A stretch of 64,000 nucleotides of DNA from Lophium mytilinum. Taxonomy: Eukaryota. Positions 12,459-42,198 of the stretch are shown here, piece by piece. The DNA lies in NCBI GenBank assembly GCA_010093605.1, contig MU004183.1, positions 62,001 through 126,000 on the forward strand, written 5' to 3'. The position numbers were made by a program, and so were the translations under genes. The notes beneath the pieces are model-generated. The model saw only the letters and a program-made list of their open reading frames with translations. It did no database searches and had not been told where the DNA came from. Positions within the stretch are counted from its first letter, which is position 1; each line of letters begins with the position of its first letter.

Positions 12459-12512
12459 AGTTCCCGAGACCAACCCAGTTCCCAAGACCAACCCACATCT
12501 CGAAACCAAACT
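12459..12512 (+). repeat. 18-bp tandem repeat x3 upstream of the likely start of gene D
   Basis: AGTTCCCGAGACCAACCC / AGTTCCCAAGACCAACCC / ACATCTCGAAACCAAACT. Confidence 0.75.
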
Positions 12513-12557
12513 ACCACATCCATCTCTTCATTGTCATCGGTACTGTGCTCATTGCCA

Positions 12558-25537: not shown

Positions 25538-26506
25538 ATGGACGTCAACGCCGGACATCACCCTTATCACAGACATAGGGGCGTGGAAATACCATATTAC
25601 CCATCTTGTTACTTCATCCGTATGGAGGACGAAGGAAGCGAGAGCGAGTCCATGGATGGGATTTCCAACGATACATCCAGCGGTCCGTCTGGACGGCACA
25701 CAAAGTTCATGGACGATGGACAGCATGCTGCGACAAGTGTCAAAGATAGCGCAAAGACGATGTCTGAGGACAGAGCACATGCAGCTGAAGCGGGGAAGCA
25801 GCCTGAAGCAAGGAACTTTCATCCGGAAGAGACGACGGGTACTACGAACGCAGTAGCCACAGCGACACGAGGCGAAAGCCCGAAAACTAGGACGGTGTTA
25901 GCCGAGATCGATGCTGTTCGAGAACGCAATCGGGTTCACTTCGAGGAAAGGCGCTTGGCAGACCTCGTTCTCGGCTCCGCAAAAGACATTATTCAAGATC
26001 TTGAGCGGTTGCTGAAGGACCGTACTCAGAAGTATCAAAACAAGAAACAAGCATGGAAAGACAACATGGAGAGTGCAAAAAGGGGTCATCAAGAGGAGCT
26101 GCAAAATTTGGAAGCTGGTAACAGAGCTGAGATTGAACGTATGAGAAAGGCCAGAGATGCAGCAGAGAGCCTAGGCCTAAAAGAGCAGGAACAGCTGAAG
26201 GCAGAGATGTACCGAAATCGCTCCGAATGGTACGCAAAGGAACGTCGTCTCAAGAGTACTATCGATGCACTCCGGCTCTCAGGAACTAGAAAAGATGAAA
26301 CGATCACTCAGCTTACTTCCGAGAACGAGGATCTCCAGAAAAGGCTTGCTGCTGGGGAGAGTGCTCTTCCAGATTCTAACTCTGACACTTCCCGAAAACG
26401 TCGATGCTTTTACTCCAAGGCCACGCCTAGGAGCAGTCAATTCGCGGTCATCGACTTGACTACAGATGCATACGAGAATGCTCATACTCCATCGCCAGGG
26501 AACTGA
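25538..26506 (+). CDS. Orphan family-2 gene G: coiled-coil protein with NLS-like RKRR; RING-less paralog of K
   Basis: First ATG of ORF 25331-26506 (alternative ATG 25622). RNRSEWYAKERRLKSTIDALRLSGTRKDETITQLTSE aligns with K's KNRSEWLGTNKGLESRIQELERSGTEKDDEIARLTSE. Confidence 0.75.
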   Translation: MDVNAGHHPYHRHRGVEIPYYPSCYFIRMEDEGSESESMDGISNDTSSGPSGRHTKFMDDGQHAATSVKDSAKTMSEDRAHAAEAGKQPEARNFHPEETTGTTNAVATATRGESPKTRTVLAEIDAVRERNRVHFEERRLADLVLGSAKDIIQDLERLLKDRTQKYQNKKQAWKDNMESAKRGHQEELQNLEAGNRAEIERMRKARDAAESLGLKEQEQLKAEMYRNRSEWYAKERRLKSTIDALRLSGTRKDETITQLTSENEDLQKRLAAGESALPDSNSDTSRKRRCFYSKATPRSSQFAVIDLTTDAYENAHTPSPGN

Positions 26507-28014
26507 TATGATATCCTCTGATTCAGATGGCAGCTCGGGCCGGCTATTCAAGATTTCTCATACTCTTCCCATCTCTACTTGCCGGACCCCTTCCTATGAT
26601 TTCATGCTTTGTACATTTTACAACCTATTGCTCATTCTTCTTTGGATCTTCTTTCATCCGAACCTACAACCCTTCCTGTCCTGGCAATTAGGCAACACCC
26701 TCACTATGACGCACTGCAATAGTCATATGGCGAGACTAGAGCGCGATGTTGCCAAAGATCGCAATATGGATCCAGAATTCAACCTCGCGTTGAGCAGTAG
26801 GGACTGATGACCTAGACATGCACCTATCCAATACCCTTCTCAGTCACAATTTCCTTCCGGTATTGGTGTCCCGGCAGCCTATAATAGCCCGCTCCGTGGC
26901 ACCTTAGGTCGAGCATCGACTACAACTATCTTTGACTGGTCATTCAGATTGCTTCGGACCAAAAAAACCTTGCACCTATTCAGAATGCGAATCTCCCATA
27001 AACAATACCCTCAAATATGGCGACATCATTTCCCCATCTCTTTTTGTACTACGATATCACATTGCTTCAAGATCAACATTTCCATGAGTGCCATTTGAGT
27101 TTTCCTTGCCTAATCTCATCTGGGATCTTGCATCTCTTCGGGGGATTACACAGGCCAGAAAGTAGGGTGTGCCGGTATCAATGGTTCCTCCTGGCACATT
27201 CTTATTTGGTGCATTCGTCATAGCGTGATGAATCTCAGCCTCTTCCTCCTTTTCTTTTCCCAGCAAGTAAGTTCAATTCCTCAACGAAAGTCTAGATTAT
27301 CCACCACATCGTGAGAAGCCATGAAAAGCCCTACGTGCGTGAAAACTCGTCGATGTAGTCTTTGAATAAATCGACACGTCAGCGGGCAACGTTGATAAGT
27401 TTCCCGGGGGCGCACTCCGTCCATCTCACTCTACCAACGAACCTCTCCGTTTCCAACCACACTTCATCGCTCTCAACATCTCTATTCTCTGAATGCTTCT
27501 GAAGGTATATCAAATACATTTGCCCGTTGCGTTACCGCAATGAGAAGTACCAGGGCGACCTTACATCCCTATCAAAACGTTATCTGACCGCTTCCTCCGA
27601 TCGAAACACATGGTCTTATCACCTCGGGTCGATCCATTGTATCCCATTCCAGCGACCTCACTTGATCAACACCGGTATAACCTTTCTTCTATCTCAGCCC
27701 CAGGCTAGCGCGCTATCGCGTATCCTCACTTGCCCCACAATCATACAAACGCACGAACGTTTTTGCACCGCTACAACTTCCACCTTACCCTCAATAGTAT
27801 CAGCCTAGCCCTCCTCTTCACAAACGCAGCTGGTTTGAACTCCAGACCTCGCCCTGCCATCGTAGCTTCTCTCCTCACTTCTTGGAGCAAGCCCGGACCC
27901 AACAGCATCGGCTAGCGCATGCCGAAGCAGCCCCTAAATCGTCGGTTCTCATTGTCCGCGATTCGATCGATCTACATCGTTCCTCGGCATTAGCATCTAC
28001 CTACCCAACCAAAG

Positions 28015-30111
28015 ATGGATGGCAATCCCGCCGACTCAGAGCAGACGGCATCTGGAATTCCGAGCTATGATGCTTCTACCACCGGCGAATCTCCGCAAGT
28101 GACGAGCGACACCTCAGCGTGCATGTCGAGCGTCAGCTTAAACGATATATCCGATTTCAGTAAAGACATACCACAAGAAGCTCCTACTATTATGGAATTG
28201 ATTCTCCCAAATGGTCGAGATACGACTCTCCGCAAGTCGACAATACCAATTCTTTCATCCCAGCAAGTAGATCCAGAGATCCTAAGGGCTCAGGTCGCCC
28301 ACCTGCAAGGCTTGAATGATTACCAGAAGAAGCAGAACGAGGCTTTAAAGCTCGATCTTACCACGATGGTGAATTGGGGTCTGGTGCAGGAGAACAAGGC
28401 TGAGAGTGCGAAAACGCTAGCCGGGGAACTGGAAATGGACCTTAGAAAGATGGAGGAAGCTAATGACAAGGAGCAAACCAGGGCTAAGGTAGCCGAAAAG
28501 CGGGTTGAGGAATTGGAGGTCGGATTGAAGGTGATGGAGGATGCCAGGAACGAGGCAAATAGCAGAGTGAAGAGAGCTGAAAAGCGGGTTGCGGAGCTAG
28601 TCGTCGAACTCAACATCAGGGAGGGGGCTGAGAATGAGCAAATGGCGGTGAAAGAGGCTTTGGAGCTTGAGAAGATGTCATTGGCTGAGCAGGTATCTAT
28701 GGCGAGGGCACGGATTGAAGATCTGAAGAATGAGATTGCAAGAGCGAGAGAAACTCACAACGAAGAAAAAGAAAAGATGAATGACTCTCAAGACGAAGGG
28801 ATCCAGATCTTGCTCTGGAAATTTCGTGAGCGATTAGGCTACCTCGAAGAAGAAACTGAAACAGGAACTGAGAGGCCGGATACATTGCAAGAGTGGGACA
28901 GTATGAGATCCATGCTAAACAGCTTCAAGGACGAACATTCGAAACAAATCCAGCAGATCTTTAGGCTACTCAGTCATGGCAAGTGTGAAAAGCTTCGCGA
29001 GAAAGAGAAGACATCCAGGCTTAAGAGAGACTTTGGAAATGCGAACTTGGAGAACAGTAATATCAAGAAGGATAACATTAGCCTGGAGAGGGAGCTAAAC
29101 AGTGTGAAGAGAATTAAGGAAAGGCTGGAGGCCGAGTCCTCTCGTCAAAATGAGCCGTTTATAAAGAAGGAAGTCGATCATTGGCCACCTGAGAAATTTC
29201 GGTCTCCAGAGGATCCTACAACGGACTCACACAGGCCCAAACGTCTGAAGCATATCTTTCACGATACAAGCGAGCAATCATTGTCTCGAGGTTACTCTAA
29301 CCCTCTATCCCGCCCAAATTTCCATGCAATATTTTCGTCGGAGCGCTCGGGTTCTAAGACAGTATCGACAGTTGGAAGTCCGATTTCGACGCACAATATA
29401 ATGTGCGGCGTCTGCCTCGAGATCCATCCTGCGAAGGGTTGGCTGACTGGCTGCCTCCACGTGATATGTTGGTCATGTTTCCTAGAAATGGAGTTCACGT
29501 CAAGCTTCAAGAGTGAAGGAACGACGAGCTGCTACTGTGGACATCCTATCACGTATACGATGACACTCGAATCCTGCCTTGCAGACAGCGAGCCTCCGAA
29601 ATTCTCCAGCTCATTCAGCTCGAAGTTATCAGAATATAAAACACTCCAACCCGAGGATACAAGTGTGTTTTCGGGAAAAGTCTTTTACAGCCTACGAACT
29701 CGCCAGGCTACCATTGCATTTTCCGCTCGTAGCTCAAAGAGCGAGATTGATGACCTCGAGCCTGAAGTAACACAATGGGTGGCCCGATCTCTGAGAGAGT
29801 GGTTTTCGATCCCGAGACCTCAATTTTGGGTCGAATATCAGAAGAGAAATGGAACTTGCTTGCACTGTCAGATCCACAACCAATACTGTTTCCTACTGAA
29901 TCCTGGAAAAAACGAGGCGTGTGTGCCCTGCTCAAAAAAAGGCGTTCCGTGCCTGGCCATCAAGAAGTCCGTTTGGGGCCCTCTCATACAGCTCCTGCCT
30001 CTAGCGGACACCTACCGCAAAGGTCGCCTATGGAAATCAATCGTATCTTGGAAGGATCCAGAGAAAGTTCAGAAAGCGGAATGGGAAAGGGAATGGGAAA
30101 ATCAATTGTAG
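28015..30111 (+). CDS. Orphan family-2 gene H: long coiled coil + C3HC4-type RING + C-terminal Zn2Cys6-like motif, 698 aa, intronless
   Basis: E/K-rich heptads with a 28-aa repeat. RING CGVC..WLTGCLHVICWSC..CYC (29404-29538). C-x2-C-x6-C-x10-C-x2-C-x6-C at 29857-29952. Confidence 0.85.
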   Translation: MDGNPADSEQTASGIPSYDASTTGESPQVTSDTSACMSSVSLNDISDFSKDIPQEAPTIMELILPNGRDTTLRKSTIPILSSQQVDPEILRAQVAHLQGLNDYQKKQNEALKLDLTTMVNWGLVQENKAESAKTLAGELEMDLRKMEEANDKEQTRAKVAEKRVEELEVGLKVMEDARNEANSRVKRAEKRVAELVVELNIREGAENEQMAVKEALELEKMSLAEQVSMARARIEDLKNEIARARETHNEEKEKMNDSQDEGIQILLWKFRERLGYLEEETETGTERPDTLQEWDSMRSMLNSFKDEHSKQIQQIFRLLSHGKCEKLREKEKTSRLKRDFGNANLENSNIKKDNISLERELNSVKRIKERLEAESSRQNEPFIKKEVDHWPPEKFRSPEDPTTDSHRPKRLKHIFHDTSEQSLSRGYSNPLSRPNFHAIFSSERSGSKTVSTVGSPISTHNIMCGVCLEIHPAKGWLTGCLHVICWSCFLEMEFTSSFKSEGTTSCYCGHPITYTMTLESCLADSEPPKFSSSFSSKLSEYKTLQPEDTSVFSGKVFYSLRTRQATIAFSARSSKSEIDDLEPEVTQWVARSLREWFSIPRPQFWVEYQKRNGTCLHCQIHNQYCFLLNPGKNEACVPCSKKGVPCLAIKKSVWGPLIQLLPLADTYRKGRLWKSIVSWKDPEKVQKAEWEREWENQL

Positions 30112-31501
30112 CAAATTTACCAGTTGGCGCCTTCAAGCGATAAGTCTTCGTCCAATTCCCAGCTTCCAAGGGCAGACCTCAACATCGATATGTCCATTTG
30201 AAATTACGATCTGCTCCGGGAGACAGCTTGGTATCCTCGCTTTATAGTCGCAGTATGACATTCTACCTTTGCCCTAGCTAGTATTTGGATTATACTCATC
30301 CCCATCTGGAGATTAGTAGGGAAGTGGCTGAAAAGCGAGTCACTTTGGGTTTGGCTGGTATCATCTTTTCATACTCTTCGATAAGATCTTTGATTTCTTT
30401 CTTCAGCTTTTGCCCTTCCTTTGGATATTTCCCCCAAATAAAAGTCTAAATGCATCCCGTCAATTGAAAAGTCCATGTATTATGTGAGACCATTGTAAAT
30501 GTCCTTCTGTGTGAACATCAAGATATTCCTAACTCGGCGCTTTCCTCACTCTCAATTCTGCTCGCTTCTCATGACTCAAGGGTTTAGTCCCTTAGCTAGG
30601 ATTTAGCTACTAATAGAATTACCTACAAGGTTTCTAATTCCCGGCATAGTTAACGCATGTCGGTGTTTCATGTAAGTCTAATTTGAACATGATATAATAA
30701 GTACGAGGTAATACACCTATGGAAGGTTTATGCGACAAACATCATGGAGGTCTTGAAATGAGAACAGATGGCGATGAGAAATGGCGAGGCCGTAGAAATC
30801 AGACTACCCGGAAGGATCTCTTCACGCTCGCCTTTTGCTGTAAAGTCAACAATGAGCCGAACGTCTAGACTTCACTTCATCCTATCCGTGCACATAAACC
30901 CTCCTATACGCCCCAATCCTCAGCTAGGAGCTTTTAGCCTACTTCCACCATCTCTTATACCACCCCTCTAAACATCCTTATTCACATCAACTTTAATCAA
31001 TTTTCCCGCCTCACTACACCAACTCTCGAGGTATTCTCATACTGAAAAAGGATACAAAGAAGTAATCGAGGGGACTGCATCCAACCCTAGCAACGTTCTC
31101 GTGAAAGTGCATTCCTAGAAATCATTCTACAAGTATGGTTTTTGCTCTCCATAGGAAACAGCACATGCTGTTTACTATACAGACTCTTCCAGTCATCTAC
31201 TATCGAATGAGACCTCCGAACTATGGAGAACTTGACCAATGACCATCAAGTACGACATCACCGAAGATACCAGAACCAAATCGAAAATCGACCGAGGTTT
31301 GAGAAAGAGCACCAAAAAGACTGGGCCACACTTCAATACATTTCGCCTCGGTAAGGGACTACATCGTTAGTAGCACATTGGGAGGATATAGCTTCACGAG
31401 GGGCTGCTAGGGCTACAGGCCAAAAGCCCCACCAAGTGAGGGACAAGAGAAAGACGTCCGAGCTATAAGAGATACACAAGAGGACCGCAGACAGTAATCC
31501 A

Positions 31502-31573
31502 AAAAGTTCAGTGATTTCTGGGTAGGCGAGTAGGTGTCAGATCTCAGGATCCGAAAAGTTCAATGATTTCTGG
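31502..31573 (+). repeat. Two direct copies of a 20-bp motif, inverted relative to the 135-bp repeat at 32.0-32.3 kb
   Basis: AAAAGTTCAGTGATTTCTGG (31502-31521) and AAAAGTTCAATGATTTCTGG (31554-31573). The first is the exact reverse complement of 32207-32226. Confidence 0.85.
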
Positions 31574-32004
31574 ATAGCTCTTCTCTTTTCGTACCTACTC
31601 TACCATAGCACTAGCAACATGTTCAGTGGTGGTAAATTATGAAAACACATACGTCTGTCTGTTTCTATGAGCTAGCTGTTGGAAAATAAGGTGATGCCTA
31701 TTAGTCTAGAGGGTGTTCCATTTTACTGAACCATAAACGCTGCTTGATACTGCCGAAAATAAACTTCATGTAGAATATTTGTAGAGTTTATCGGCTGATG
31801 CAAAGTTTTGGGAGTCGGGTTACATCGAGCGTCTAGAGTGTCTAATCCGCACACCTGGTCAGTGGGTAGTATCATGCGTTTTCCCGAAGTAATAGCGTTT
31901 GGGTACACAGTGCGATATAGGCAAAGTCCGAATCTAACACAATGCGGAATCCTGGATACCCCGAATGCAGAGAGCCTCTCAAGTTGCAATGGAAGCCATT
32001 TTCA

Positions 32005-32345
32005 TAGATGCATTACTCCCTAAGCCTCGCTCCCATATGTGGTCCCAGAAGTCCGAAACCTATTCGCCCATCCTGAAATATTTGAACTTTTCGCATCGCC
32101 CTCTGCAGGCTCATCCCTAGGACATCCCAAATCGGTCTGTAAATGCACTGCTCACCAAGCTTCGATCCCATATGTGGTCCCAGAACTCCGAGACGCACCC
32201 ACCCATCCAGAAATCACTGAACTTTTCGAATCGCCGTCTGCAGGCTCATCCCCAGGATGTCCCGACTCGGTCTGTAGATGCATTGTGCACCAAGCCTCGC
32301 TCCCGTATGCAGCCCATAAAATTCGAGATGTGCTCGCACATCCAT
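32005..32345. repeat. 135-bp tandem repeat, ~2.5 copies, just 3' of gene I
   Basis: AAGC(C/T)TCG(C/A)TCCC(A/G)TATG anchors at 32022, 32157 and 32292; CTGCAGGCTCATCCC is shared by two units. Confidence 0.9.
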
Positions 32346-32394
32346 ATCCCGCGCCATGTCACTACCGTTGACGATAGGCCATGTACGGAAACCT

Positions 32395-33450
32395 CTATAG
32401 GTGAGGTGGCTCACTCATCCGATCATACTCACGGATGGCTGTTCTCGGGCGCTTGTGCGGTCTGTTCGACCCAGAGTCTTTCCGATAAACAGCATCTTCG
32501 ATAGCCCATAACCTTGCTTTCAGTCCTTCTTTCTCGAACCACGTTGAATTAGCCTTAATCTTCAAGCGGGCCACCTCCGCGTCTTTCTCTTCGTCCTTCA
32601 ATTCGATATGTTCAGATTTTGCCTTCAGGCTGTCCATCTTCGCCCAAAGGGAGCAAATGAACTGGTCAATCTCTTTCTCCTTTGACATAAGTTCTTTCTC
32701 CTTTGACTTAAGTTCTTGACATATCACGCGCTCCCGATGTTCATACCCTTTCAGCTCGTGGTTTCTGTTTTCCTTGTCATATTCCAAGCCTGTGATAACA
32801 TCCTTCGCCCTCTGCAGCTCGTCGACTTGACGAGAACACTCCGATCTGAGAGCCTGGGCCTCTTCTATCAAATGCCGATTCGACTTCACCAACTCCGCGT
32901 TCTCCTTTTTTTCCTGCGCGACGACCTTTCGGATAGTCTCATTCTCTTTCTCCTTAGCTTCAACCCTCTTCAAGAGCTCTTCTTCTAGCTCTCGAACCTG
33001 TATCAGAGAAGCTGCCACTTCCTTGGCCCGTTGTTCTCGCATATCCGCGACTTCCTACTCCAGACCAGCGCATGTCTCTGCTAGCTTGGTTTTCTCATCT
33101 TCCAGGTAGGTGTTCTTAGCGTTCGATGATTGTACGAGGCTGCTCGATGATTGTACGAGACTGTAGAGAGACGCGTTTTCGTTCTTTAGAGACGCGTTTT
33201 CGTTCTTTTCAACCATCAAGCGAGTCTCCAGAGATGATATGCGCGCTCTCAGAGACAATTCGGTCGGTGTTTCCATCGAGTCAGTGGCATGGCTGTTAAT
33301 AGTGGGGACACCATCATGGCCAGTGGTGACATGCACCGCGGTATCCACGCTAGTCGACTGGGGCTCTGGCATTGCTTGAGATTCTAGGGTCACTGTAGAT
33401 TGCGGAGTTTGGATCGGCGTATCGCCCGAGATATCTAGCTCACCCTCCAT
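32395..33450 (-). CDS. Orphan family-2 gene I: coiled coil + RPHKRPR NLS, interrupted by one in-frame TAG
   Basis: ORFs 33055-33573 and 32395-33042 are in the same frame, separated only by GAG TAG GAA GTC GCG GAT (TAG 33057-33055). ATG at 33450. Heptad pattern is continuous across the stop. May be a recent pseudogene. Confidence 0.7.
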
Positions 33451-35463
33451 AGTTAACGCCGTGTGCGAGAGTGTGTGGTAGTTGATCAAGGATGAATGGA
33501 CCGTATATTGGAAGCTGTAGTGACCAAAGACAGAACTGAGGCTGGGGATGGCGAAGTTATGGCAGAGGAGCATTTAGTCGGTTGTTCAGCCTGCTGTAGT
33601 GATTGAACCTCTACGAAAAGCCGTTGGAGTAGATAGTGCTACGGAACAAGAAGCTGTAAGCCGTTTACGTGATGGATTATATAATGATGAGGTAAGATAG
33701 GGAGCGGTCTGAGGGGAGGTAAGCCTTGTGATGCTGTATGGCGAATTTCAGTAGTGTCGGAGAATGCTCCCGTGAGCCTACGCGTCAAATTCCAACTCTG
33801 CTGCTGCCATAGTATCGACTACATCAGTCCAGAGTCCAGAAGTTCTCTAGTAGCGCGTGAAGAATCACCTATGATTTCAGAGCTTTACGGTCGCGATTCG
33901 AGGCTTCGCTCTAAAACATATGTGCTGAGTTCAAGACCGAGGGTACTCATCAAAACCTCCACCGCAATACCAGCATGTCCTGTGATATAATCAGAAACGG
34001 TTCGGTCCGACTTTATGAAAGCCCCTGTAGCTGTATAGGCTACCTCAGACCGGTATCGGACTGCTAGCATATGCTCAATGAGACATCAATGCATCCTTCC
34101 TGGAGAAGATGAAGTTTCCGTCTTACTCTACTCTGTCACCTCACAAATCAGGACTCACAGACGGGAGGACTCTTCGAGTACAGGTCGTTGCACGTTTGTT
34201 GATATGCTAAGATGTTAGAGAGCAAGTAAGATCTGCGAAGAGGCGCAGCACGTTGTCGGCGGCGAATGGCAAACTGCTAAACAATCTAGAGCTACTCACA
34301 TCATTCCGCACAGCATCAGCGAAAACACACCGAAAATCTTTTCAGCGAAAGGAGCGGTCTTTATTGCCATCCAATGTTCGATCACAACAGTCCCTGCATG
34401 CTCAAGTAGTTCGAGCAGTGATTAGATGACGCGAGGTTTGCTATTGTCCCTGCGTCGAAAGCCGACCAAGATCTTGATCATAAAATTACAAACCTTGATG
34501 CAATATCGAGAGATAAAAGTTTACAAATGCAACTACCGCCAGGCCGGCAAGAAGCCATCTTTGATTTACTTTCTGTCTACAAATCTTTAGACAGATGCAA
34601 CCTGCGGTCAAGAGCTAGGAACATGACATGTAAAAGTGGTCTCAGGAAAGTGTGGGCAACTCCGCACAAGTGCCTAAGAGCGTTCTTTTGCTCTCGCTTG
34701 CGAATCGTATTGGCATGTGACCAGCTCGCCCTCCTGCGGCGGCGACGAAGGCAAGGCGGTATTCCTTGGCTTGGTACATTTCAGGGTGGGCCCTGTAATC
34801 ATGTTAGTGACACCGGTTTTGAGTCCACAAGGGACTCTCAGTCGTACAACCCTAAAGTAGAATATCATGGAAATATTTATACCTTGCGAATTGGCCATAC
34901 GGTTTGGCGGTATACTCAAACCTTCGATAGTTTCCTGAGAACGTGACTTTGAGTCAGTGAGCGATGTGACTATACGGAGCTCTCAAACCAAATCTTAATA
35001 GGTAACGATAAATAGATATCCTCGAGAGTATGCTAGACATTTACCTTACTTAACTTACAGCATGTAAAGAAGCATGAAGCCCGAATTGAACGTATAAAAA
35101 GCAGCGTCGGTAAGAGGTTGAGTTATCACAAGGCTCGACTGAGGAATTTGCACAGATTGCTGTTGTGTGGATACGGAAACCACAATAGCTCTCTCCGCCA
35201 GAAGTTTGACTTCTTAGGCTATTTTTTGACTATGAAAGTATTTTCCAAACTTAGGGAATATGAAATGGGGTAGCTGGTGGCTGAGGGTGTAAAACAAAGG
35301 AAAGATGGGAGAAATTCAAAAGATACTGAGTGCTGGTTCGCCAGACGAAAAGAATGAAAAGCACGACATGAGAGCCTGGAGCCATGGTGCATCTAATTTT
35401 TGGTGGGTTTCTCCCCTACTGCTGATGTTTTAGAATGATATTTCCGATGCACCAGCGTCTTTA

Positions 35464-36891
35464 CTACTCCCATAGGTCATCGTTCCTCACGGCAGCTGCG
35501 CGAACATCCTCCAAACTTCGGGTGATCCACATGCCAATATCGTTAGGATCTGTAGTGGCCGTCTCCCGAAGTTCCTTTCTCAGTGGCAAGATGGTCAGTT
35601 CTGTCTTGTCTCCCGTCGAGGAAGGTTTTCTGCTAAGCACCACGCACAGCACCTTCTTCCTCGAGCAACTACGGCAGGCCTGTCTTCCTGGCGAGTCTTT
35701 GGGCCATTGTGAGTCATAAACCGTGGCGCGTGAGATGAGATGAAGGCATTTCGAAGTGATCTTTGGATCTTCGATTGGTAATACTCCGTCGCTATGAAAG
35801 AACGGTATAAAAACTGCCAGTTTCTCTCGCAAACAGTGTGGGAACTCCGAGCCAACCAATCTGGCATTCCCGTGCAGCGCAATGAAATCGAAGTTGGAAT
35901 AGCTCTTCTGTAATTTTTCAAAAGGTGTTTGAGTCGCTGAAGGCAGCGAAAAATTTGCGGGCGGAGAGGAGACGGCAGCGCTCTGACTGCCGCCATAGTC
36001 TATCCTTGGACGCTTGGCCGGTCTTTCAGATACGTCCATGTTGACAGCATCCTTGATTGAAGATAGCGTTGTCTTTAGAGCGTTCGTCTCTTGCTGGGCC
36101 AATGCGAGCTGAGCCCTGAGGCTGCGGATCTCTTCTTGGTCCTTCGCTTTGAGAGCTGTGAGATTCTTTTCCAGAGATGTTGCCATATCTTTGTGCTGGT
36201 TGAACAGAATCCCTAGTTCGTAGAGACTCTTCGCATTCTCATCTATGCGCCCTTGCAGCTTTTCGATCTCTGCCCCCTTGGCCCTCTTCATCTCCTCGAA
36301 CTCTTTATCCTTGCTTCTCTTCAAGACGATCATTTTCATGTCACCTTCTTCCTTTTGCTGATTTAATAAGCGCTTGAAACTTCTGATCTCTTTCTCTCCG
36401 CTCGCAAGCGTACCCTTGACGGTAGAAAGCGCCTCTTCAGTCTTGAGACCTTGATCATGCCGAACTCGAAGTTGCTCCTTTAAACTGTCAATTTCCGCGA
36501 GCAGGCGCCGCCGCTGCTCCTGATCCGACGTCGTCTCGCTACCTTTCTTTGTCTCCGGATCGACATTTCCCCTGCTCTTCTCCATCATTTGCTTCTCCCA
36601 TGCCTCTAGTGCCTCTAGCCTTCTCTCCACCGTAGCCAAGCGATCTTCACTTCCCGTATCCCCCATTTTCACTTGATCGACGACGGCTGCAGTACTCTTC
36701 CCCTCCTTGGCATGCTGCGCAGGATCTTCTTTCTTTCTGCTTTTTGCTCTAGTAAACTTGCCATCCAACCAATCATCTGCAAATCTCTTTGCTGCCAAAA
36801 GATGCTCGTCATGGAGAACGCAATCCGCGGCATGATGAGACCAAGATTCGCCGTCCCAAACACAGTCTCTGTGATGCGCCGGCGGAGCCAT
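35464..36891 (-). CDS. Orphan family-2 gene J: coiled coil + RPAKRPR NLS + degenerate Cys module shared with H, 475 aa
   Basis: Intronless ORF. C-terminus KCLH...PGRQACRSCSRKKVLC...TILPLRKELR...IGMW parallels H's TCLH...PGKNEACVPCSKKGVPC...QLLPLADTYR...IVSW. Confidence 0.85.
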   Translation of the reverse strand: MAPPAHHRDCVWDGESWSHHAADCVLHDEHLLAAKRFADDWLDGKFTRAKSRKKEDPAQHAKEGKSTAAVVDQVKMGDTGSEDRLATVERRLEALEAWEKQMMEKSRGNVDPETKKGSETTSDQEQRRRLLAEIDSLKEQLRVRHDQGLKTEEALSTVKGTLASGEKEIRSFKRLLNQQKEEGDMKMIVLKRSKDKEFEEMKRAKGAEIEKLQGRIDENAKSLYELGILFNQHKDMATSLEKNLTALKAKDQEEIRSLRAQLALAQQETNALKTTLSSIKDAVNMDVSERPAKRPRIDYGGSQSAAVSSPPANFSLPSATQTPFEKLQKSYSNFDFIALHGNARLVGSEFPHCLREKLAVFIPFFHSDGVLPIEDPKITSKCLHLISRATVYDSQWPKDSPGRQACRSCSRKKVLCVVLSRKPSSTGDKTELTILPLRKELRETATTDPNDIGMWITRSLEDVRAAAVRNDDLWE

Positions 36892-38390
36892 TGTTTTCGG
36901 ATAGATCTTGTTCTAGCCCAGTGCCATGAAACGGCCCGACTCGATTGGGGGGTGATCAGACCAGTGATCGAAGGCAGTGAGGAGTCGAGATCAAACGGTA
37001 TGCGCGTTAGATATCAGCATGCGGTAGGTATTAGAGAGTTTGGATATAATGACGGTGAGGCAGCAGACCACCCAGCGGGCCACGAATGGGAGGTAAGAGA
37101 GTAGCTACAGTGCGGAGGTGGAGGGTTAGAAAGGTAGGTGTTGAGCTGTGGAAAGGTGGGAGTTAAGGTTTGGAAAGGCGGTGGCAGATAAGATGTAGGA
37201 CCTCACTTGAAGTTACCAGAGTGCGTCTACTTTCTTCCCGTTTTCATCATCATACTGCTAAAAGGTAAGCCCGCTAGGCTACCCCAGATGGCAGCAGATA
37301 AGTGTACACGGATATCGGAAGCACATGATTGCCGATTTAGTTCGCGCTCTCGCGACTATGGCATCCTATCTATGTTCTTGGTGATATTTTGAGGTACTAC
37401 AACCTGTGCCTACATAGCCCAATTCAATAGTTTTGAAACCTTGCCGACTCATAGACTAGAGGGCGCAACATAGTATAGTGGTACATAGTGGTATGCTGAG
37501 GCAACTCAGGCAATGGAACAATTGGATCATTCATGGCTCACTCAGTCATGGTCTTGAGTATTTGAAATCTCATGCGCAGTTCAAATAATAGGCTGATGGC
37601 TCTAAGACTGTGCAAGCATAGAGGACCAAATCAGTTGTTGGTGGGAGCTTTTTATTGATATAGGAGAGTGGAAGAGATGGCAAGAAAGAGTATGCACCTA
37701 AATATTGGGAAGGGTGAAGGCAAGATCAAAATTCAAAACGCTTTGATCAATTGTGAAGGTGGAAAGGGACGGAAAGGAAGGAGGAAGGGTTGAAAAGAAG
37801 ATCGCCTGCCTTTCCGTGTTATGGGCTTGTATGTGGGTGGTATTGGGGAGCAAAGAGATGAAAACAATGCAGATGGTGGGCATGGTAAGTCGTGATAAAG
37901 TCGCCAGAACTCTCTGGGCTACTTTGCTAAGCATATCTTTCAGGGAATTTTAGTCGTCAGGTTTTAAAGAAACCCCTGTTTAGATCCTGTTCTAATCATC
38001 TTTAAGCCCGGGGGTCATGCTTGGTTGACAAGTAGCGTCTGCCAGTTAAGTATTGTGTAATCTGAGGAGTTTCTTCCAGACTTCCAGGTTCTAATCATCT
38101 TGTACGGCAGTCGCAAAAGTAGCATGACATCTTTCGGCACTGAAAGAAGTAGACATAGATAGCCCTCCTTCTCGCATGCCTACCCAGCTTCGTGGGTACT
38201 ATGCGGAGTAAGTGTCTCAGAATTTAGCTCGATTCGAGTGTGCAACGTCCGCCTATATGCTCAAACACTCGTCCGCCCAGAGCTCAATATCTTGCCCGAT
38301 ATTAGAAAAATGCACATTAGACCGCGTGTTGGCCAGTGGGTTTGGATTAAGGGCATCGGATAGCCGTCAGTGTCGGAATGATGTGGCCTA

Positions 38391-40505
38391 TTAGGGTGCG
38401 TACGGAACACTGAATGAATACATGAAGCCACAAGAACAGCATGCTGCACTCTCTCTGCCAGTAGTGGACGCTTCAAGCTGGAGATCTTCCAGACAGCCTT
38501 GGCAGTAGAAATGACGGCAAGCTGTCATCCACGGATCGATGGCAGTTTTGTGGCATTTGACGCATTTGGTTTCCTCGTCATCCGACATCTCATCATTCAT
38601 ACCCAAACGTTGACGCTTACGGGGTCTGTCAACATCGAGGATGCCATCTGTACGAACAGCGTTGTTGGCCGTATCGAGTCCCTGCTGGACATCTCGAAGC
38701 TCGGAAGTCAGTCGTGCAATCTCATCGTCCTTCTCTGTGCCCGATCGCTCCAGCTCCTGTATCCGACTCTCAAGGCCCTTATTCGTCCCGAGCCACTCGC
38801 TCCGATTCTTCCGCGCAATTTCTTTAAGCTGCTTCACTTCGGCGTCTCCAATCCTTTTCGCCCTCGCAAAGCCTTCTTCTTCCCGCTTCCCTGCCTCTTT
38901 GAGCATAAAGTCCTTACTAGCTTCTAACTGCTGGACTTGTTCTTCATGTGACATCTTGATTTCGTCGATCTCGCCCTTCAGCTTCCCTTCGCCATCCTTC
39001 AACGTAGCAACCATGTCGTCTTTAATCTGCATCTCCGCCCTGTGAATTCCCCGCTCTTTTTCCAGTCGCGTTTCAAGAGCTCGATATGTGTCCAGTTGGC
39101 TTCGGATCTTCTTTTCGCTACTCTGGGCCGAAGCGTCCCAGTCGCGCTTCAAGCTCTGGATCTCTGCCTTCGCAGTAACAAGCTCCTCTTGGGTCCGAAC
39201 TCTATCCTCGTCCCAAATTCCTTGCTGCTCCTCCAATACCGCGATGTTGCGGTCTTGTGCCTGCTCCAGGCGAGCGAAGTCGTCGTTCGTCTTCTCAATC
39301 TGCGCCTTCGCAGCAGCAAGATCCTCCTCAAGTCTATTCTTCTCCTCCAGCCAGGTTACCTCTTTCTTCTTAACTTCTTGAAGCTCACGTTGGTCGCGGT
39401 AGGCTTGAAGCCTCTCAGATCCTTTCGCGGCATCTCCGAGGTCCTCCTCAACGGCTGCCATGAACTTCAAAGCCATGTTGTGGTGACCGTCCATCGCTTG
39501 GAGTCGATCTTCTAAGGCTTGAAGCCTTATTCCAATATCAGATGTGTTCTCCCCAGCGTAGGAGATACCCTTTTTTGACTGAGCAGGTTCAAGAGAGGTC
39601 GTTGAAAGGGTCGCTAAAGACACAGAAGTGGTATCTTCATCGTTAGGCGGAGATGTTTCGGCATCCATCATATCGTGATCTATATTATGAGCTTGTATCG
39701 TCCGGGAAGTAAGCGCTGAATCGCTGGTAGCCGGTCGAATTGTTGAAGATGCAGTAGCCACGGCTCCATCATTTGCCGGGAACGATGTAGCATTCGCCAT
39801 GTCGTGATCCACTTCGGAAACCTGGGCAGCCTGGTGAGATGGGATTGGATTGCTGGTAGCCGCTCTGGAACTGAAAATTTCCATAATAGGTGGCTTGTCC
39901 CGTCCAAGTGGGTTGAAGTCTCGGTCATCCATTTGGGAGGAGTCAGACAGCTTGCTAGCAGATCTATCGCGGCGTACGCTAAGTATGCTTGCACCTAGAT
40001 CAAGAGCACCAACATGTCTAGCTTGGCGGGGTAGCCCTAGGCGTGCGGTGTTGGTTTCGCCCTGCGTTCCATCATCATTTTCCACACGCTGCCGAGCCTT
40101 GTGCTCTCTCAGGCGAGTATGCTCTTTTGTCTGCGCCTTCATCCACGCGATGTCTTCACTCAACGACAGGTCCCGACGTTTTTTGATCTCCGCGATCCTG
40201 TCCGTTTCAAGTAGGAATCTAAAGAGTTCATTAGTTGGTTCCGATGGAGACATTTCATTGGGGAACACGACTCACTTTTGACGTGCCAATTCATCTTCAG
40301 CGTCCACGCTGAGAGGGTGCGTAGCTACGACCGCATCAAATGTGCTTTGGGGAAGGGCTGTCTTCGCTGCTTTGTTCGAACCCTTTCCTTCGGTCTTAGC
40401 GTTCGGCTTCTTAAGCTTCGATTTCGCCTTGAGGGTAGCTGGAGTCCGATGCTTTAGCTGCTTCCGCTCGTTGCTCGTCAACAATGGGGCCGGGTAGTCC
40501 TCCAT
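38391..40505 (-). CDS. Orphan family-2 gene K: low-complexity N-terminus, long coiled coil, RPRKRQR NLS, C-terminal C3HC4 RING
   Basis: Exons 40505-40276 and 40218-38391 joined by a 57-nt intron (GTGAGT...ACTAAT...TAG). RING CVKC..WMTACRHFYCQGC..CCSC at 38564-38430. Confidence 0.85.
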
Positions 40506-42198
40506 GATTGCTAGCGCTATCCGATCACCTCGGAGTTGAAGTTGGTGGTTGAGGTAGGTTGTAGAGAGTGTAATCGAGAGGTTGTTGGTGGTCGAAGGAG
40601 CAGAAGTGAGATCTCGACTTAGACCGCCAAGGCCGAAGACCTCACTTCACTTCTAACAGACAAGGCAATCGTGTCTGGGAGCATAAGCCTTGACCGTCAT
40701 AAGTAAATGCCTACCAGATGAGACGCTAGATTTTCGCTCCCATAAATCGGTAGAAAAGCCGCGGAGATGCAAATGAACGGATAGCTTCCCAACAACAATA
40801 ATTCCCCTGCGGTACCTTGGTAGAAGCTCGTGCACTCACCTCTACGATTGCTTGAAGTACCCCTAAATGTCTCAAAAGTATGTCCAGTTATAAGTCGTAA
40901 CACGTTGGAATCTTGGGGTCGGTAGCGCAGTGGTGCGGTTGCTTACGCAGTCTTCAAGGTGCGTCTGTTATGATATCAGATCCAGGGTCTGACCTGAATT
41001 AAGACTTTGTCTTCTTGTAAGTATCCAACTCCTCCAATACTAACAAAGCAGCATATAGATGCAGGCTGTTTAGCGATCCGGTCATAGATTGCGACGTTAT
41101 AGAATGTTGCGCAGGCTAGCTGGACGACTAGGTGTTCTGCCATTCTAGAGTTAGTGATGCTGGCTACGCTGGGAGCTGACTCTCTATTAGCTGAGGGGGG
41201 GAATGCCTCAAGACAAGAGGCAAAGAAGCTCGTCTCATTGCTGCTCGTGGGCCAACATGCCAAGCTCGAGGTCCGTCTTTCGATGGAAATTTGATGGGAA
41301 ATTGAAGAACGGCCATCGGGGACATTCAATTGATAAGAGCAGAAGATGGTAAGAAACGTGAAGTTGAAAAGATGGAAGCATGAACATATACACACACATT
41401 CCGTCAGGCACCCAGCAAGAACTGCCGGCGCATTCTACCCAGTCCAAAGTGCTATCGAACGATGAAGAAATTGTGGTGTACTTGCTATGATGGTGGTGCT
41501 TCGAGGTTTTGAGAGAAAGCAGGCGATTGAGCAAACCACTATTCCCAGAGTCACTTATTAGCTGTTGAATTCAAAATTCGGTCTAGCCAGTGTTCCTTCG
41601 AAATGTAATCAGAAGCTGTATTCCTCAAGGTGATTACCTATCCCTAGCAGAGAGAGTCACGCGACAAGCCCAGTGCTGCAGGTGGTGAAGGTTTGCCGGC
41701 CGGGGCGCCGAACCTCAACAACAAAAGCACGCATCCCAAGGCATACCACCTTCCCTACTCGAGAGACCAGCGAGCGCATTGCCGAGCTTAACGGGCCATG
41801 AATCGGCTCTCAATCCCACTATAAATGGCCTCCGGACGTCGTGTCTGCGGTTCGGACTTCGTGCCCAATGGCTCTTTGAAAGCTGGTCCATCCTCATTCC
41901 CATCTCTACCGCGCAAATCTGATACCTCCTGTTTCCCGCACCCGTCACACCCGCGGATCTCCACCGCTTCTTTAAAGGAGTCAGGCCGGGCGAATGGAGC
42001 AGTCAGCACAAAGGATCCGGACTCTTGTGCTGCAACCGTGAGAAGGAGTTGGGACTACGACTGAGGAGTGCAATTGGACGCGTATCTAAATCCACGTATG
42101 CGACAAACGGGATAACTACTCGATATCAAACAGCTTCCTGCTTCAACCCCTCCTTTACGACCTCCTCTACCTCTACTCTCGCCCAGAATCAATTCACT

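What the first reader, a model, noticed from the sequence alone, without database searches (positions are those of the whole stretch)
25538..40505. Coiled-coil / NLS / RING / Cys6 family with mix-and-match C-termini
Seen: all five genes have a disordered N-terminus, a long coiled coil and then an R-P/S-x-K-R-type motif. After it, G and I have nothing, K has a RING, J has the Cys/LPL/W module and H has both. The RINGs of H and K share W[LM]TxCxHxxCxxC. Inference: domain-shuffled paralogs that could hetero-oligomerise through their coiled coils, with RING-less members acting as adaptors or dominant-negative regulators of nuclear E3 ligases (TRIM- or Bre1-like logic in a different architecture).
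Basis: partly seen in the sequence, partly recalled or inferred. Interest (0 to 1): 0.75.

Follow-up and report, generated by a model that had tools for sequence, protein, structure and literature searches.

The report
Fungal coiled-coil gene cluster, swapped zinc domains
Five neighbouring fungal genes encode related coiled-coil proteins that end in different zinc-binding domains (a RING, a zinc cluster like those of fungal transcription factors, both, or neither), a narrowly distributed family of unknown function.

Summary
Five adjacent genes (G–K) in a fungal window encode proteins with a heptad-rich centre and a basic KR motif. After the motif, H and K carry C3HC4 RINGs, H and J carry a Cys/LPL/W module, and G and I carry nothing. 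The links exceed composition: G–K z=13.6 against shuffles. I, J and K alone share [DN]AV…RPxKRxR. The H and K RINGs share W[LM]TxCxHxxCxxC.

New points:
- An RNA contig confirms K's intron and its start at 40505.
- Gene I has an in-frame TAG.
- The H/J module belongs to a wider, unnamed family (19 further proteins; the three named ones are Dothideomycetes), often behind a coiled coil and a KR motif.
- In H the module has Zn2Cys6 spacing. Its best PDB sequence match is the Leu3 zinc cluster (E 0.11). The only 3 of 48,161 solved chains with Z≥2 are Ppr1, Gal4 and Pho7. J and most relatives keep four of the six Cys.
- Full-length relatives were found only in Mytilinidion resinicola, where both RINGs lack zinc ligands.

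Domain-shuffled paralogs: supported. E3 activity, DNA binding and hetero-oligomerisation remain inferences; the G–K complex prediction gave weak support only.

The parts
25538..26506 (+). Gene G, 322 aa: S/T-rich N-terminus, heptad-rich centre, SRKRR motif (26390-26404), 33-aa tail with no domain
   Evidence: ORF. The exact protein is in the public collection. Residues 174-289 are 35% identical to K. Low-depth RNA contigs cover 25868-26476.
28015..30111 (+). Gene H, 698 aa: N-terminus, coiled coil (about aa 86-380), RPKRLK motif (29233-29250), RING, linker, Zn2Cys6-like module
   Evidence: ORF, identical to P0001. Ortholog P0002 is 55% identical. One low-depth RNA contig covers 28138-28425.
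29404..29538 (+). H RING, aa 464-508: C-x2-C-x12-C-x-H-x2-C-x2-C-x17-C-x-C
   Evidence: Regex. Pfam zf-RING_5 15.9 bits, below its cut-off of 27.9. Best PDB sequence hits are the COP1 and RING2 RINGs, E 0.13-0.14. hhalign to the K RING gives E 2.2e-5, prob 76%.
29857..30051 (+). H C-terminal module, aa 615-679: C-x2-C-x6-C-x10-C-x2-C-x6-C, then a predicted beta-hairpin, LLPL, R and W
   Evidence: Leu3 zinc cluster is the best PDB sequence hit, E 0.11, with all six Cys aligned. AF2 model pLDDT 74. The only chains with VIA Z>=2 are Ppr1, Gal4 and Pho7. 67% identical to the ortholog.
32395..33450 (-). Gene I, 351 codons with an in-frame TAG at 33055-33057. The 215-aa ORF from 33042 holds a coiled coil and DAV..RPHKRPR (32443-32463), with a 15-aa tail
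   Evidence: No RNA contig was laid here (no evidence either way). None of the three I forms tried is in the protein collection.
35464..36891 (-). Gene J, 475 aa: conserved Cys/His N-terminal 35 aa (36787-36891), coiled coil, DAV..RPAKRPR (36004-36024), four-Cys/LPL/W module (35527-35748)
   Evidence: ORF, identical to P0004. Ortholog P0005 is 42% identical. Module: 68.4 bits against an HMM built from the 19 distant relatives alone.
38391..40218 (-). Gene K, exon 2: disordered region, coiled coil (G-like segment 38616-38978), NAV..RPRKRQR (38607-38627), C-terminal RING (38430-38564)
   Evidence: RING against the TRIM34 RING (2egp): E 3.2e-5 over 57 residues. An RNA contig covers the exon.
40219..40275 (-). 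K intron, 57 nt, GTGAGT...TTTAG
   Evidence: Joint in RNA contig of run X3, absent from DNA run X1. Sequence.
40276..40505 (-). K exon 1, ATG at 40505. The whole protein is 685 aa

Best explanation
A tandem family of five paralogous genes, restricted to a narrow lineage of a Dothideomycete fungus.

The shared chassis is a variable N-terminus, a long coiled coil (probably the oligomerisation element) and a basic KR motif that looks like a monopartite nuclear localisation signal. The C-terminal 'head' has been exchanged among the copies.
- J carries the head typical of a wider fungal family. It is a zinc module derived from the Zn2Cys6 binuclear cluster, keeping four Cys (positions 1, 4, 5, 6) and extended by a beta-hairpin, LPL and a Trp.
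- H keeps all six Cys of that cluster and has in addition a C3HC4 RING.
- K has only a RING.
- G is a K-like copy without a RING.
- I, which may be broken, has no head.

Inferred mechanism:
- The proteins enter the nucleus and form coiled-coil dimers.
- The zinc-cluster head of H and J docks them on DNA, chromatin or a nuclear partner.
- The RINGs of H and K recruit an E2 to modify whatever is bound.
- G (and I, if it is made) could pair with K-type coiled coils and dilute RING valency.

Shown here: gene structures, common descent, domain content, the wider family and transcription of K. Not shown: nuclear localisation, zinc binding, DNA binding, ligase activity, any interaction.
For: Common descent.
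- G-K: 35% identity over 121 aa, z 13.6, 0/200 shuffles.
- [DN]AV-x5-12-RPxKRxR occurs in I, J and K and in none of the other six-frame pieces of the window (641 pieces, 63,061 residues).
- H-K RING: z 8.1; hhalign E 2.2e-5.
- H-J module: z 5.7.

Wider family.
- A profile of the H/J module scanned against 1.84 billion proteins gave 22 hits at E<=1e-3. Nineteen lie outside this cluster, E 1.8e-7 to 9.1e-4.
- Ten of the 19 were looked up. The three that carry names are Dothideomycetes: Venturia effusa, Paraphaeosphaeria minitans, Lineolata rhizophorae.
- By my reading of the sequences, six of the 19 also have long heptad-rich N-terminal parts and a KR cluster before the module.
- Invariant columns are C, C-x2-C-x6-C and P of LPL. 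A, L, R and W are nearly invariant.
- An HMM built from the 19 alone scores J at 68.4 bits and H at 45.5 bits. The next window piece scores 8.7 bits.

Zn2Cys6 link.
- H has the exact spacing.
- A source names its ortholog 'Zn(2)-C6 fungal-type'.
- Leu3's cluster is the top PDB sequence hit for H (E 0.11) and the only hit for the family profile (E 5.5).
- Of 48,161 solved chains, only Ppr1 (Z 2.7, rmsd 4.0, 51 aligned), Gal4 (Z 2.2, rmsd 4.3, 41 aligned) and Pho7 (Z 2.1, rmsd 4.2, 44 aligned) reach Z>=2.
- Ppr1 is also Foldseek's first row (E 0.97).
- Seven of the 9 nearest Atlas models are Zn_clus proteins.

RING and expression.
- K's RING matches the TRIM34 RING (E 3.2e-5), then TRAF5 and RNF113A.
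- A spliced RNA contig covers K; low-depth RNA contigs cover G and H.

Conservation. Orthologs of H, J and K lie on one M. resinicola contig. The KR motifs are kept and H's module is 67% identical.

G-K pairing. Complex prediction gave 'weak support'.
- Score 0.45, best of 3 controls 0.00; partner pLDDT at least 70; runs agree in at least 45% of contacts.
- The mark was reached by 51 of 78 solved complexes and 2 of 108 mismatched pairs.
- At 0.60 or under it was reached by only 5 of those 78, and by all 4 mismatches that passed, of 180.
Against: Family thresholds and scores.
- No Pfam model reaches its cut-off: RING 21.3 bits (K) and 15.9 bits (H) against 27.9; Zn_clus 7.8 against 21.
- All Zn2Cys6 fold and sequence scores are individually insignificant (Z<=2.7, E>=0.11).
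- The longer model, H 545-698, matched nothing.

DNA binding is doubtful.
- The stretch between Cys 2 and Cys 3, which reads DNA in Gal4 by my recollection, holds no Lys or Arg in H.
- J and most relatives lack Cys 2 and Cys 3.

RING function is doubtful.
- The RING is K's least conserved part (38%).
- Both M. resinicola orthologs, as annotated, lack RING ligands.
- H's last ligand pair is C-x-C rather than C-x2-C.

The family may be decaying.
- Gene I has an in-frame stop.
- Word-seeded searches found full-length relatives in one other species only.

The complex controls were not coiled coils.
Confidence: 0.5

Rival explanations
1. The cluster is a young set of duplicates, largely decaying and without a coherent shared function. 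The domains are relics, the RINGs are losing ligands and I is already a pseudogene.
For: - In-frame TAG in I.
- RING ligand losses in both M. resinicola orthologs as annotated.
- K's RING is 38% identical to the ortholog against 62% for its coiled coil.
- G and H have only low-depth RNA contigs.
- Word-seeded searches found relatives in one other species only.
- GC is lower here (0.44-0.51) than in the flanks from 42 kb on (0.52-0.59).
Against: - Four uninterrupted ORFs of 322-698 codons.
- Orthologs are retained on one contig in a second species, with conserved KR motifs. H's module is 67% identical and J's N-terminus 80%.
- K is transcribed and correctly spliced.
- The module family persists across several Dothideomycete lineages.
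Confidence: 0.2
2. The four-Cys/LPL/W module is a protein-protein interaction zinc knuckle, or a structural one, not a DNA-binding domain. H's six-Cys spacing is an incidental elaboration.
For: - Only H and its ortholog have the full six-Cys spacing among the 23 aligned members.
- The region between Cys 1 and Cys 4 is variable.
- There are no basic residues between Cys 2 and Cys 3 in H.
- The conserved hydrophobic beta-hairpin/LPL/W extension has no counterpart in solved Zn2Cys6 domains.
- Pfam Zn_clus scores 7.8 bits against a cut-off of 21.
Against: - The only structural and sequence neighbours found are Zn2Cys6 DNA-binding domains.
- Basic residues precede Cys 1 (KR in H, KRRR in the ortholog) and follow Cys 5 (SKK, SRKK, TRAKR).
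- A language-model lead points to DUF3716 (score 0.86-0.87). One DUF3716 member is said to be orthologous to a direct double-strand TTAGGG binder of N. crassa (passages of PMC10776026 and PMC4650311).
Confidence: 0.25
3. The five proteins are unrelated coiled-coil proteins. Their resemblance comes from coiled-coil composition and generic Cys patterns.
For: Several coiled-coil pairs are indistinguishable from shuffles, or nearly so: G-H z 0.7, J-K z 1.7, J-H z 1.8.
Against: - G-K z 13.6.
- The I/J/K motif is unique in the window.
- The shared RING signature W[LM]TxCxHxxCxxC.
- Module HMM scores of 45-68 bits.
Confidence: 0.03
4. The genes are cargo of a mobile element. DUF3716 genes ride an IS3EU-type transposon in Zymoseptoria tritici.
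For: - Atlas lead to DUF3716 clusters.
- Passages of PMC8232023.
- Repeats lie between H and I: three 135-nt tandem copies at 32005-32343 and inverted arms at 31487-31575.
Against: - No DUF3716 Pfam hit even at E<=10.
- No transposase or integrase family among the 15 large ORFs scanned across the window.
- No long terminal repeats flank the cluster.
- Orthologs of three genes lie together on one contig in another species.
Confidence: 0.02

Closest known systems
Zn2Cys6 binuclear-cluster DNA-binding domains (Gal4, Ppr1, Leu3, Pho7; Pfam Zn_clus PF00172)
   Same: - H has the six-Cys spacing C-x2-C-x6-C-x10-C-x2-C-x6-C with basic residues before Cys 1.
- Leu3 is the best PDB sequence hit.
- Ppr1, Gal4 and Pho7 are the only fold hits with Z>=2.
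- As in those factors, the cluster sits in a protein with a coiled coil.
   Different: - The cluster is at the C-terminus, after the coiled coil. Classical factors have the reverse order.
- It is below the Pfam cut-off.
- There are no Lys or Arg between Cys 2 and Cys 3.
- J and 20 of the other 21 aligned members lack the full six-Cys spacing. The invariant Cys are positions 1, 4, 5 and 6.
- By my recollection of the Gal4 structure, those four are the ligands of one of the two zinc sites. That would leave a mononuclear site.
- A beta-hairpin/LPL/W extension follows the cluster.
- No Fungal_trans middle-homology domain is present.
Bre1 / RNF20-type E3 ligases (long coiled coil, C-terminal C3HC4 RING, nuclear)
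   Same: K has the same order: long coiled coil, then a RING at the extreme C-terminus, with an NLS-like motif.
   Different: - No Bre1-type Pfam hit.
- The only relative found is the M. resinicola ortholog.
- That ortholog's RING lacks a ligand.
- K is not the Bre1 ortholog.
TRIM (RING, B-box, coiled-coil) proteins
   Same: - RING plus coiled coil plus a variable C-terminal head.
- Tandem clusters with head swapping.
- K's RING is closest to the RINGs of TRIM34, TRIM30 and TRIM5 among solved structures.
   Different: - The RING is C-terminal, not N-terminal.
- No B-box was detected.
- This is a fungal family with no detectable common descent beyond the RING fold.
Pfam DUF8257 / DUF8414 / DUF3716 (uncharacterised ascomycete families)
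   Same: - One 116-aa ascomycete Atlas cluster is the top feature hit and the top structure hit for both J and H.
- In that cluster 29% of members carry DUF8257 and 20% carry DUF8414.
- Scores: J 0.91, TM 0.48/0.63; H 0.90, TM 0.59/0.58.
- DUF3716 clusters follow at 0.86-0.87.
   Different: - These are leads from a language model only.
- No DUF3716 hit in the local Pfam, even at E<=10.
- No hit to DUF8257 or DUF8414 was returned. Whether the local Pfam copy holds those models is not known to me, so membership is untested.

Membership tests
C3HC4 RING finger | Eight zinc ligands in cross-brace spacing C-x2-C-x9-39-C-x1-3-H-x2-3-C-x2-C-x4-48-C-x2-C | tested here: met
   K fits fully. H fits except that its last pair is C-x-C. 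There are no other matches in the window.
C3HC4 RING finger | Score at or above Pfam's gathering cut-off for a RING model | tested here: not met
   - K: zf-RING_5 21.3 bits against 27.9; zf-C3HC4_3 17.4 against 27.
- H: zf-RING_5 15.9 against 27.9.
C3HC4 RING finger | Significant sequence similarity to a solved RING domain | tested here: met
   K against the TRIM34 RING (2egp): E 3.2e-5 over 57 residues. For H alone the test is inconclusive: COP1 and RING2, E 0.13-0.14.
C3HC4 RING finger | E2 binding and ubiquitin or SUMO ligase activity | not testable with these tools
   Needs in vitro ubiquitination. The annotated orthologs lack ligands, which argues for caution.
Zn2Cys6 binuclear cluster (Zn_clus, PF00172) | Six Cys spaced C-x2-C-x6-C-x5-12-C-x2-C-x6-8-C | tested here: met
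   Met in H (aa 615-646) and in its ortholog P0002. Not met in J, which has Cys only at positions 1, 4, 5 and 6.
Zn2Cys6 binuclear cluster (Zn_clus, PF00172) | Score at or above Pfam's gathering cut-off | tested here: not met
   H scores 7.8 bits (E 4.9) against a cut-off of 21. J has no hit. One of 23 module sequences hits at E<=10.
Zn2Cys6 binuclear cluster (Zn_clus, PF00172) | Fold like solved Zn2Cys6 domains | tested here: inconclusive
   - The only 3 of 48,161 chains with Z>=2 are Ppr1 (2.7), Gal4 (2.2) and Pho7 (2.1).
- Foldseek's first row is Ppr1, E 0.97.
- The scores are low in absolute terms.
- The model is an AF2 prediction with pLDDT 74.
Zn2Cys6 binuclear cluster (Zn_clus, PF00172) | N-terminal position, followed by a linker and a coiled-coil dimerisation element; basic DNA-reading residues between Cys 2 and Cys 3 | tested here: not met
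   The order is reversed: coiled coil first, cluster at the C-terminus. H has no Lys or Arg between Cys 2 and Cys 3. The role of those residues is recalled from the Gal4 structure and comes from no call.
TRIM / RBCC | N-terminal RING, then B-box, then coiled coil | tested here: not met
   The RING is C-terminal to the coiled coil. There is no B-box hit at E<=1.
Bre1 | Orthology to the conserved fungal Bre1, with relatives across fungi | tested here: not met
   No Bre1-type family among the Pfam hits at E<=1. One relative was found among 8000 scored candidates, in M. resinicola. That search is seeded by shared words, so distant relatives can be missed.
DUF3716 (PF12511) | Match to the Pfam model | tested here: not met
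   No hit at E<=10 for H, J or any of the 23 module sequences. HMMER's filters drop most matches above E of about 0.1, so this shows non-membership only. A distant link remains a lead.
DUF8257 / DUF8414 (PF26785 / PF28477) | Match to the Pfam models | not tested
   Named only by the Atlas, which uses Pfam 38.1. No hit came from the local Pfam copy, and I do not know whether that copy contains these models.

The most novel reading that the evidence does not exclude
H would be a DNA- or chromatin-tethered E3 ligase of a kind not described. It would be a coiled-coil dimer that carries a RING and a C-terminal Zn2Cys6-type cluster in one chain.

The whole cluster would then work as a fungal counterpart of animal TRIM clusters. 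Tandem, fast-evolving paralogs would share a dimerising stalk and swap heads. RING-less members (G, I, J) would pair with RING-bearing ones to set where in the nucleus ubiquitin or SUMO is placed, perhaps in genome defence.

The four-Cys relatives would be the first recognised mononuclear derivatives of the binuclear Zn2Cys6 cluster.
Probability: 0.12. Interest if true: 0.7.

Novelty: new variant of a known kind. Interest (0 to 1): 0.42.

Why it matters
Zn2Cys6 clusters are the signature DNA-binding domain of fungal transcription factors. To my knowledge they sit at the N-terminus.

Two things would be new here:
- a family that places a Zn2Cys6-type cluster, mostly reduced to four Cys, at the C-terminus behind a long coiled coil and an NLS-like motif;
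- one member that adds a RING.

That extends the known uses of the fold. It also suggests a way to target ubiquitin or SUMO ligation to DNA-bound sites.

The cluster is also a compact natural example of head swapping on a common coiled-coil stalk. The wider module family has no name in the Pfam copy used here and could be defined from the alignment made.

The practical weight is limited. The family is confined to a few Dothideomycetes, nothing is known about phenotype, and the RINGs look poorly constrained.

Tried and rejected
Searches that gave nothing useful.
- Whole-genome search: no genome is held for this window.
- Earlier findings of the scan: none by place or by sequence.
- Pfam on the five proteins, the three orthologs and the 19 distant relatives. 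No model is above its cut-off over the heads; only coiled-coil families appear, mostly below threshold.
- Fold search with the longer H model (545-698, pLDDT 69). Foldseek gave no row with E<=0.001. The best VIA score was Z 2.7, to BAX, among 18 unrelated rows. I took this as uninformative. The trimmed model gave the Zn2Cys6 rows.
- Extra family members in the window: tblastn and the module HMM found none outside the five genes.
- DNA-level traces of recent duplication among the five genes: none.

RNA.
- No RNA holder was listed for 32300-36900.
- In the one RNA-like run laid (contigs only), no contig lay on I or J.
- This is no evidence on their expression.

An intron to remove I's TAG.
- By eye, the only in-frame candidate is a 54-nt intron.
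- It has a poor donor (GTCTGG) and no clear branch site.
- I did not accept it, and it is not excluded.
- A-to-I editing of the TAG was considered and is untestable here.

Literature.
- 'DUF3716': 2 papers, passages read.
- 'NCU05718': 2 papers.
- DUF8257 / DUF8414 / PF26785 / PF28477 / PF12511: 1 paper, holding PF12511 only, not read.
- Zn2Cys6 + RING domain + coiled-coil + uncharacterized: 136 papers hold at least 3 of the 4 terms. The 12 listed are all on TRIM, TRAF or BRCA1 topics with no Zn2Cys6 mention.
- Five terms joining Zn2Cys6 with RING finger and ubiquitin ligase: 0 papers.
- 'Mytilinidion resinicola': 13 papers, 8 titles seen, none on this family.
- So I found nothing in print on this family. 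Subscription journals are not covered.

Mobile-element reading: rejected for lack of any transposase or terminal repeats.

Full report
**What the window is.** The window is eukaryotic and fungal.
- RNA contigs show GT..AG introns of 55-59 nt in an Arf gene at 23.5-24.2 kb.
- The flanks hold ordinary fungal genes: an O-methyltransferase, Arf, pantothenate kinase (Fumble), NUP159, MBOAT and a Sel1-repeat protein.
- The only full-length relatives of the genes in question come from the Dothideomycete Mytilinidion resinicola.
- No whole genome is held for the window.

**Gene models.**
- G is 25538-26506 (+), 322 aa. H is 28015-30111 (+), 698 aa. J is 35464-36891 (-), 475 aa. All three are single ORFs, and these exact proteins are in the public collection.
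- K is 38391-40505 (-). A spliced RNA contig joins 40218 to 40276 across a 57-nt GT..AG intron. The DNA run lacks this joint. The frame then opens at the ATG at 40505 and gives 685 aa.
- I runs from 33450 to 32395 (-) but carries an in-frame TAG at 33055-33057.
  - The 215-aa ORF downstream of the TAG contains the coiled coil and the basic motif.
  - By eye, the only intron that would remove the stop in frame is 54 nt long with a poor donor. I neither accept nor exclude it.
  - None of the three I forms I tried is in the protein collection.

**Is the family real?** Four separate links tie the five genes together.
1. *G and K.* They share 35% identity over 121 residues at the end of the coiled coil (tblastn). 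The Smith-Waterman score is 13.6 sd above 200 composition-preserving shuffles.
2. *I, J and K.* They share [DN]AV-x5-12-RPxKRxR at the end of the coiled coil. The pattern occurs nowhere else in the window's 641 six-frame pieces of 50 aa or more (63,061 residues). hhalign of J+ortholog against K+ortholog+G aligns exactly this stretch (E 2.6e-4, prob 43%). H has RPKRLK and G has SRKRR at the same place.
3. *H and K.* Each has a C3HC4 RING with the shared signature W[LM]TxCxHxxCxxC. The support is z 8.1 and hhalign E 2.2e-5, prob 76%.
4. *H and J.* They share the C-terminal module (z 5.7).

The remaining coiled-coil pairs are weak (z 0.7-4.9). Plain shuffles destroy heptads, so these cannot be told from generic coiled-coil likeness.

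A crude heptad score finds 127-197 residues of proline-free heptad pattern in each protein. Each value exceeds the maximum of its 50 shuffles.

No sixth member and no DNA-level duplication trace were found.

**The C-terminal module.** I scanned a profile of the H and J modules with their orthologs over 1.84 billion representative proteins.
- It found 22 proteins at E<=1e-3. Three belong to this cluster or its orthologs. Nineteen are new, with E from 1.8e-7 to 9.1e-4.
- Ten of the 19 were looked up. The three with names are from Venturia effusa, Paraphaeosphaeria minitans and Lineolata rhizophorae. The other seven come from unnamed assemblies.
- In the 23-row alignment four Cys (C…C-x2-C-x6-C) and the Pro of LPL are invariant. 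An Ala before the second Cys, a Leu, an Arg and a Trp are nearly invariant.
- An HMM built from the 19 outsiders alone scores J at 68.4 bits and H at 45.5 bits. The best other piece of the window scores 8.7 bits.
- By my reading of the sequences, six of the 19 also have long heptad-rich N-terminal parts and a KR cluster before the module. J therefore shows the ancestral architecture.
- No Pfam family covers the module in the local copy.

**What the module is.** H and its ortholog have six Cys spaced C-x2-C-x6-C-x10-C-x2-C-x6-C, which is the Zn2Cys6 spacing. A public source labels the ortholog 'Zn(2)-C6 fungal-type'. The further evidence is as follows.
- *PDB by sequence.* H's module best matches the Leu3 zinc cluster, with all six Cys aligned (E 0.11). 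Leu3 is also the only hit of the family profile (E 5.5).
- *AF2 model and VIA.* A model of H 595-687 has mean pLDDT 74.4 and 82-90 over the core. Aligned to 48,161 solved chains, only three reach Z>=2, and all three are Zn2Cys6 domains. They are Ppr1 (Z 2.7, rmsd 4.0, 51 aligned), Gal4 (Z 2.2, rmsd 4.3, 41 aligned) and Pho7 (Z 2.1, rmsd 4.2, 44 aligned).
- *Foldseek.* Its first row is also Ppr1 (E 0.97). AlcR, Gal4 and Hap1 are in the top 50, and no row reaches E<=0.001.
- *Atlas.* Seven of the 9 nearest Atlas models to H are Zn_clus proteins.

Each score is weak because the domain is tiny. The agreement of four methods is what carries the argument.

Against full membership:
- Pfam Zn_clus gives 7.8 bits against a cut-off of 21.
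- The domain lies at the C-terminus, after the coiled coil.
- H has no Lys or Arg between Cys 2 and Cys 3.
- A longer model, H 545-698, matched nothing.

J and most relatives keep only Cys 1, 4, 5 and 6. By my recollection of the Gal4 structure (no call), those are the ligands of one of the two zinc sites. The common form may therefore be a mononuclear derivative. A conserved aromatic residue, usually Trp, sits near the lost Cys 3 column.

**The RINGs.**
- K's RING matches the TRIM34 RING over 57 residues (E 3.2e-5), then TRAF5, RNF113A and other TRIMs.
- H's RING is weaker (COP1 and RING2, E 0.13-0.14), and its last ligand pair is C-x-C.
- Pfam RING models stay below their cut-offs.
- Conservation is poor. 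K's RING is 38% identical to its ortholog against 62% for the coiled coil.
- In the K ortholog the third Cys is Tyr and the long loop is 12 residues shorter.
- In the H ortholog a 6-residue gap removes C-x-H-x2-C.
- These ortholog readings rest on annotated proteins. I could not see the DNA.
- By contrast H's module is 67% identical, the KR motifs are kept, and J's first 35 residues (with Cys and His) are 80% identical.

**Expression and interaction.**
- In one RNA-like run, available as contigs only, K lies in a long high-depth contig. G and H have contigs of depth 3-4.
- Contigs cannot rank expression, and the absence of contigs over I and J proves nothing.
- A single complex prediction for K 380-560 (numbered from 40268, as) with G 120-300 gave 'weak support'. 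The score was 0.45 and the best of 3 controls 0.00. Partner pLDDT was at least 70, and the runs agreed in at least 45% of contacts.
- By the tool's calibration, 51 of 78 solved complexes and 2 of 108 mismatched pairs reached the mark. At 0.60 or under it was reached by only 5 of those 78, and by all 4 mismatches that passed.
- The controls were unrelated proteins, not coiled coils, so specificity is untested.

**Leads to named families.** For both J and H the Atlas's top cluster is the same 116-aa ascomycete cluster.
- In that cluster 29% of members carry DUF8257 and 20% carry DUF8414.
- Scores are 0.91 for J and 0.90 for H, with TM up to 0.63.
- DUF3716 clusters follow at 0.86-0.87.
- These are leads only. 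DUF3716 gives no Pfam hit even at E<=10.

From passages read:
- DUF3716 genes ride an IS3EU-type transposon in Zymoseptoria tritici (PMC8232023).
- A Fusarium DUF3716 protein is said to be orthologous to N. crassa NCU05718 (PMC10776026).
- NCU05718 binds double-stranded TTAGGG directly and has no annotated DNA-binding domain (PMC4650311).

If the link is real, it would favour DNA binding.

**Most likely mechanism.** The family is a set of coiled-coil proteins, probably nuclear, built on one stalk with interchangeable zinc heads.
- I infer dimerisation through the stalk and nuclear import through the KR motif.
- I infer docking on DNA, chromatin or a partner through the Zn2Cys6-type head (H, J), and E2 recruitment through the RING (H, K).
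- G is a K-type stalk without a head. It could pair with K, but this is barely supported.

I put about 0.85 on the descriptive part and about 0.3-0.4 on the mechanism, which gives 0.5 overall.

Rivals:
- partial decay of a young duplicate cluster (0.2);
- a module that mediates protein contacts rather than DNA binding (0.25, compatible with the rest of the model);
- composition-only similarity (0.03, contradicted);
- transposon cargo (0.02).

**Novelty.** All the building blocks are known. New are three things:
- the architecture: coiled coil, then KR motif, then a C-terminal Zn2Cys6-type cluster;
- the mostly four-Cys variant with its LPL/W extension;
- the RING plus cluster combination in H.

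My searches found nothing in print on this. Subscription journals are not covered. I rate it a new variant of a known kind and of moderate interest.

Noticed in passing
window 9704-11017, 12285-14459, 15821-17836 (+): A second, unrelated tandem family lies upstream. Three ORFs of 437-724 aa are 35-41% identical over 240-275 residues (E 1.5e-45 to 5e-25). They are rich in K/R/E/D, have no Pfam family and show no similarity to G-K.
   Followed up: partly
window 5490-6632 (+) and 18964-20862 (-): Two further large ORFs without any Pfam family. By eye, each contains internal repeats. The whole 5-41 kb stretch is filled with genes that have no named family.
   Followed up: no
window 32005-32343 and 31487-31575: Three tandem copies of a 135-nt unit (71-81% identical) lie just 3' of gene I. 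Inverted-repeat arms of 28-62 nt lie about 500-630 nt upstream of them. This may be a small repeat element between H and I.
   Followed up: no
window 33055-33057 (-): In-frame TAG inside gene I, in the context CTG GAG TAG GAA. It could mark a pseudogene, a shorter protein starting at 33042, an unusual 54-nt intron, or a codon restored by A-to-I editing as described for other fungi (PMC10776026, abstract seen in the listing). None of these could be tested.
   Followed up: partly
window 36787-36891 (-), J residues 1-35: J's N-terminus carries several Cys and His and is 80% identical to the M. resinicola ortholog, the best-conserved part of J. It may be a small metal-binding or interaction motif. 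No Pfam hit.
   Followed up: partly
window 37942-41500: One 8,577-nt RNA contig of depth 437 runs from K's 3' end through K and on past 41500. K's transcript therefore overlaps or abuts that of its upstream neighbour in this assembly.
   Followed up: no
P0002 and P0003 (M. resinicola orthologs of H and K): As annotated, both orthologs have RINGs that lack zinc ligands: a 6-residue gap in P0002, and Cys-to-Tyr plus a shorter loop in P0003. This is either real decay or gene-model error.
   Followed up: partly
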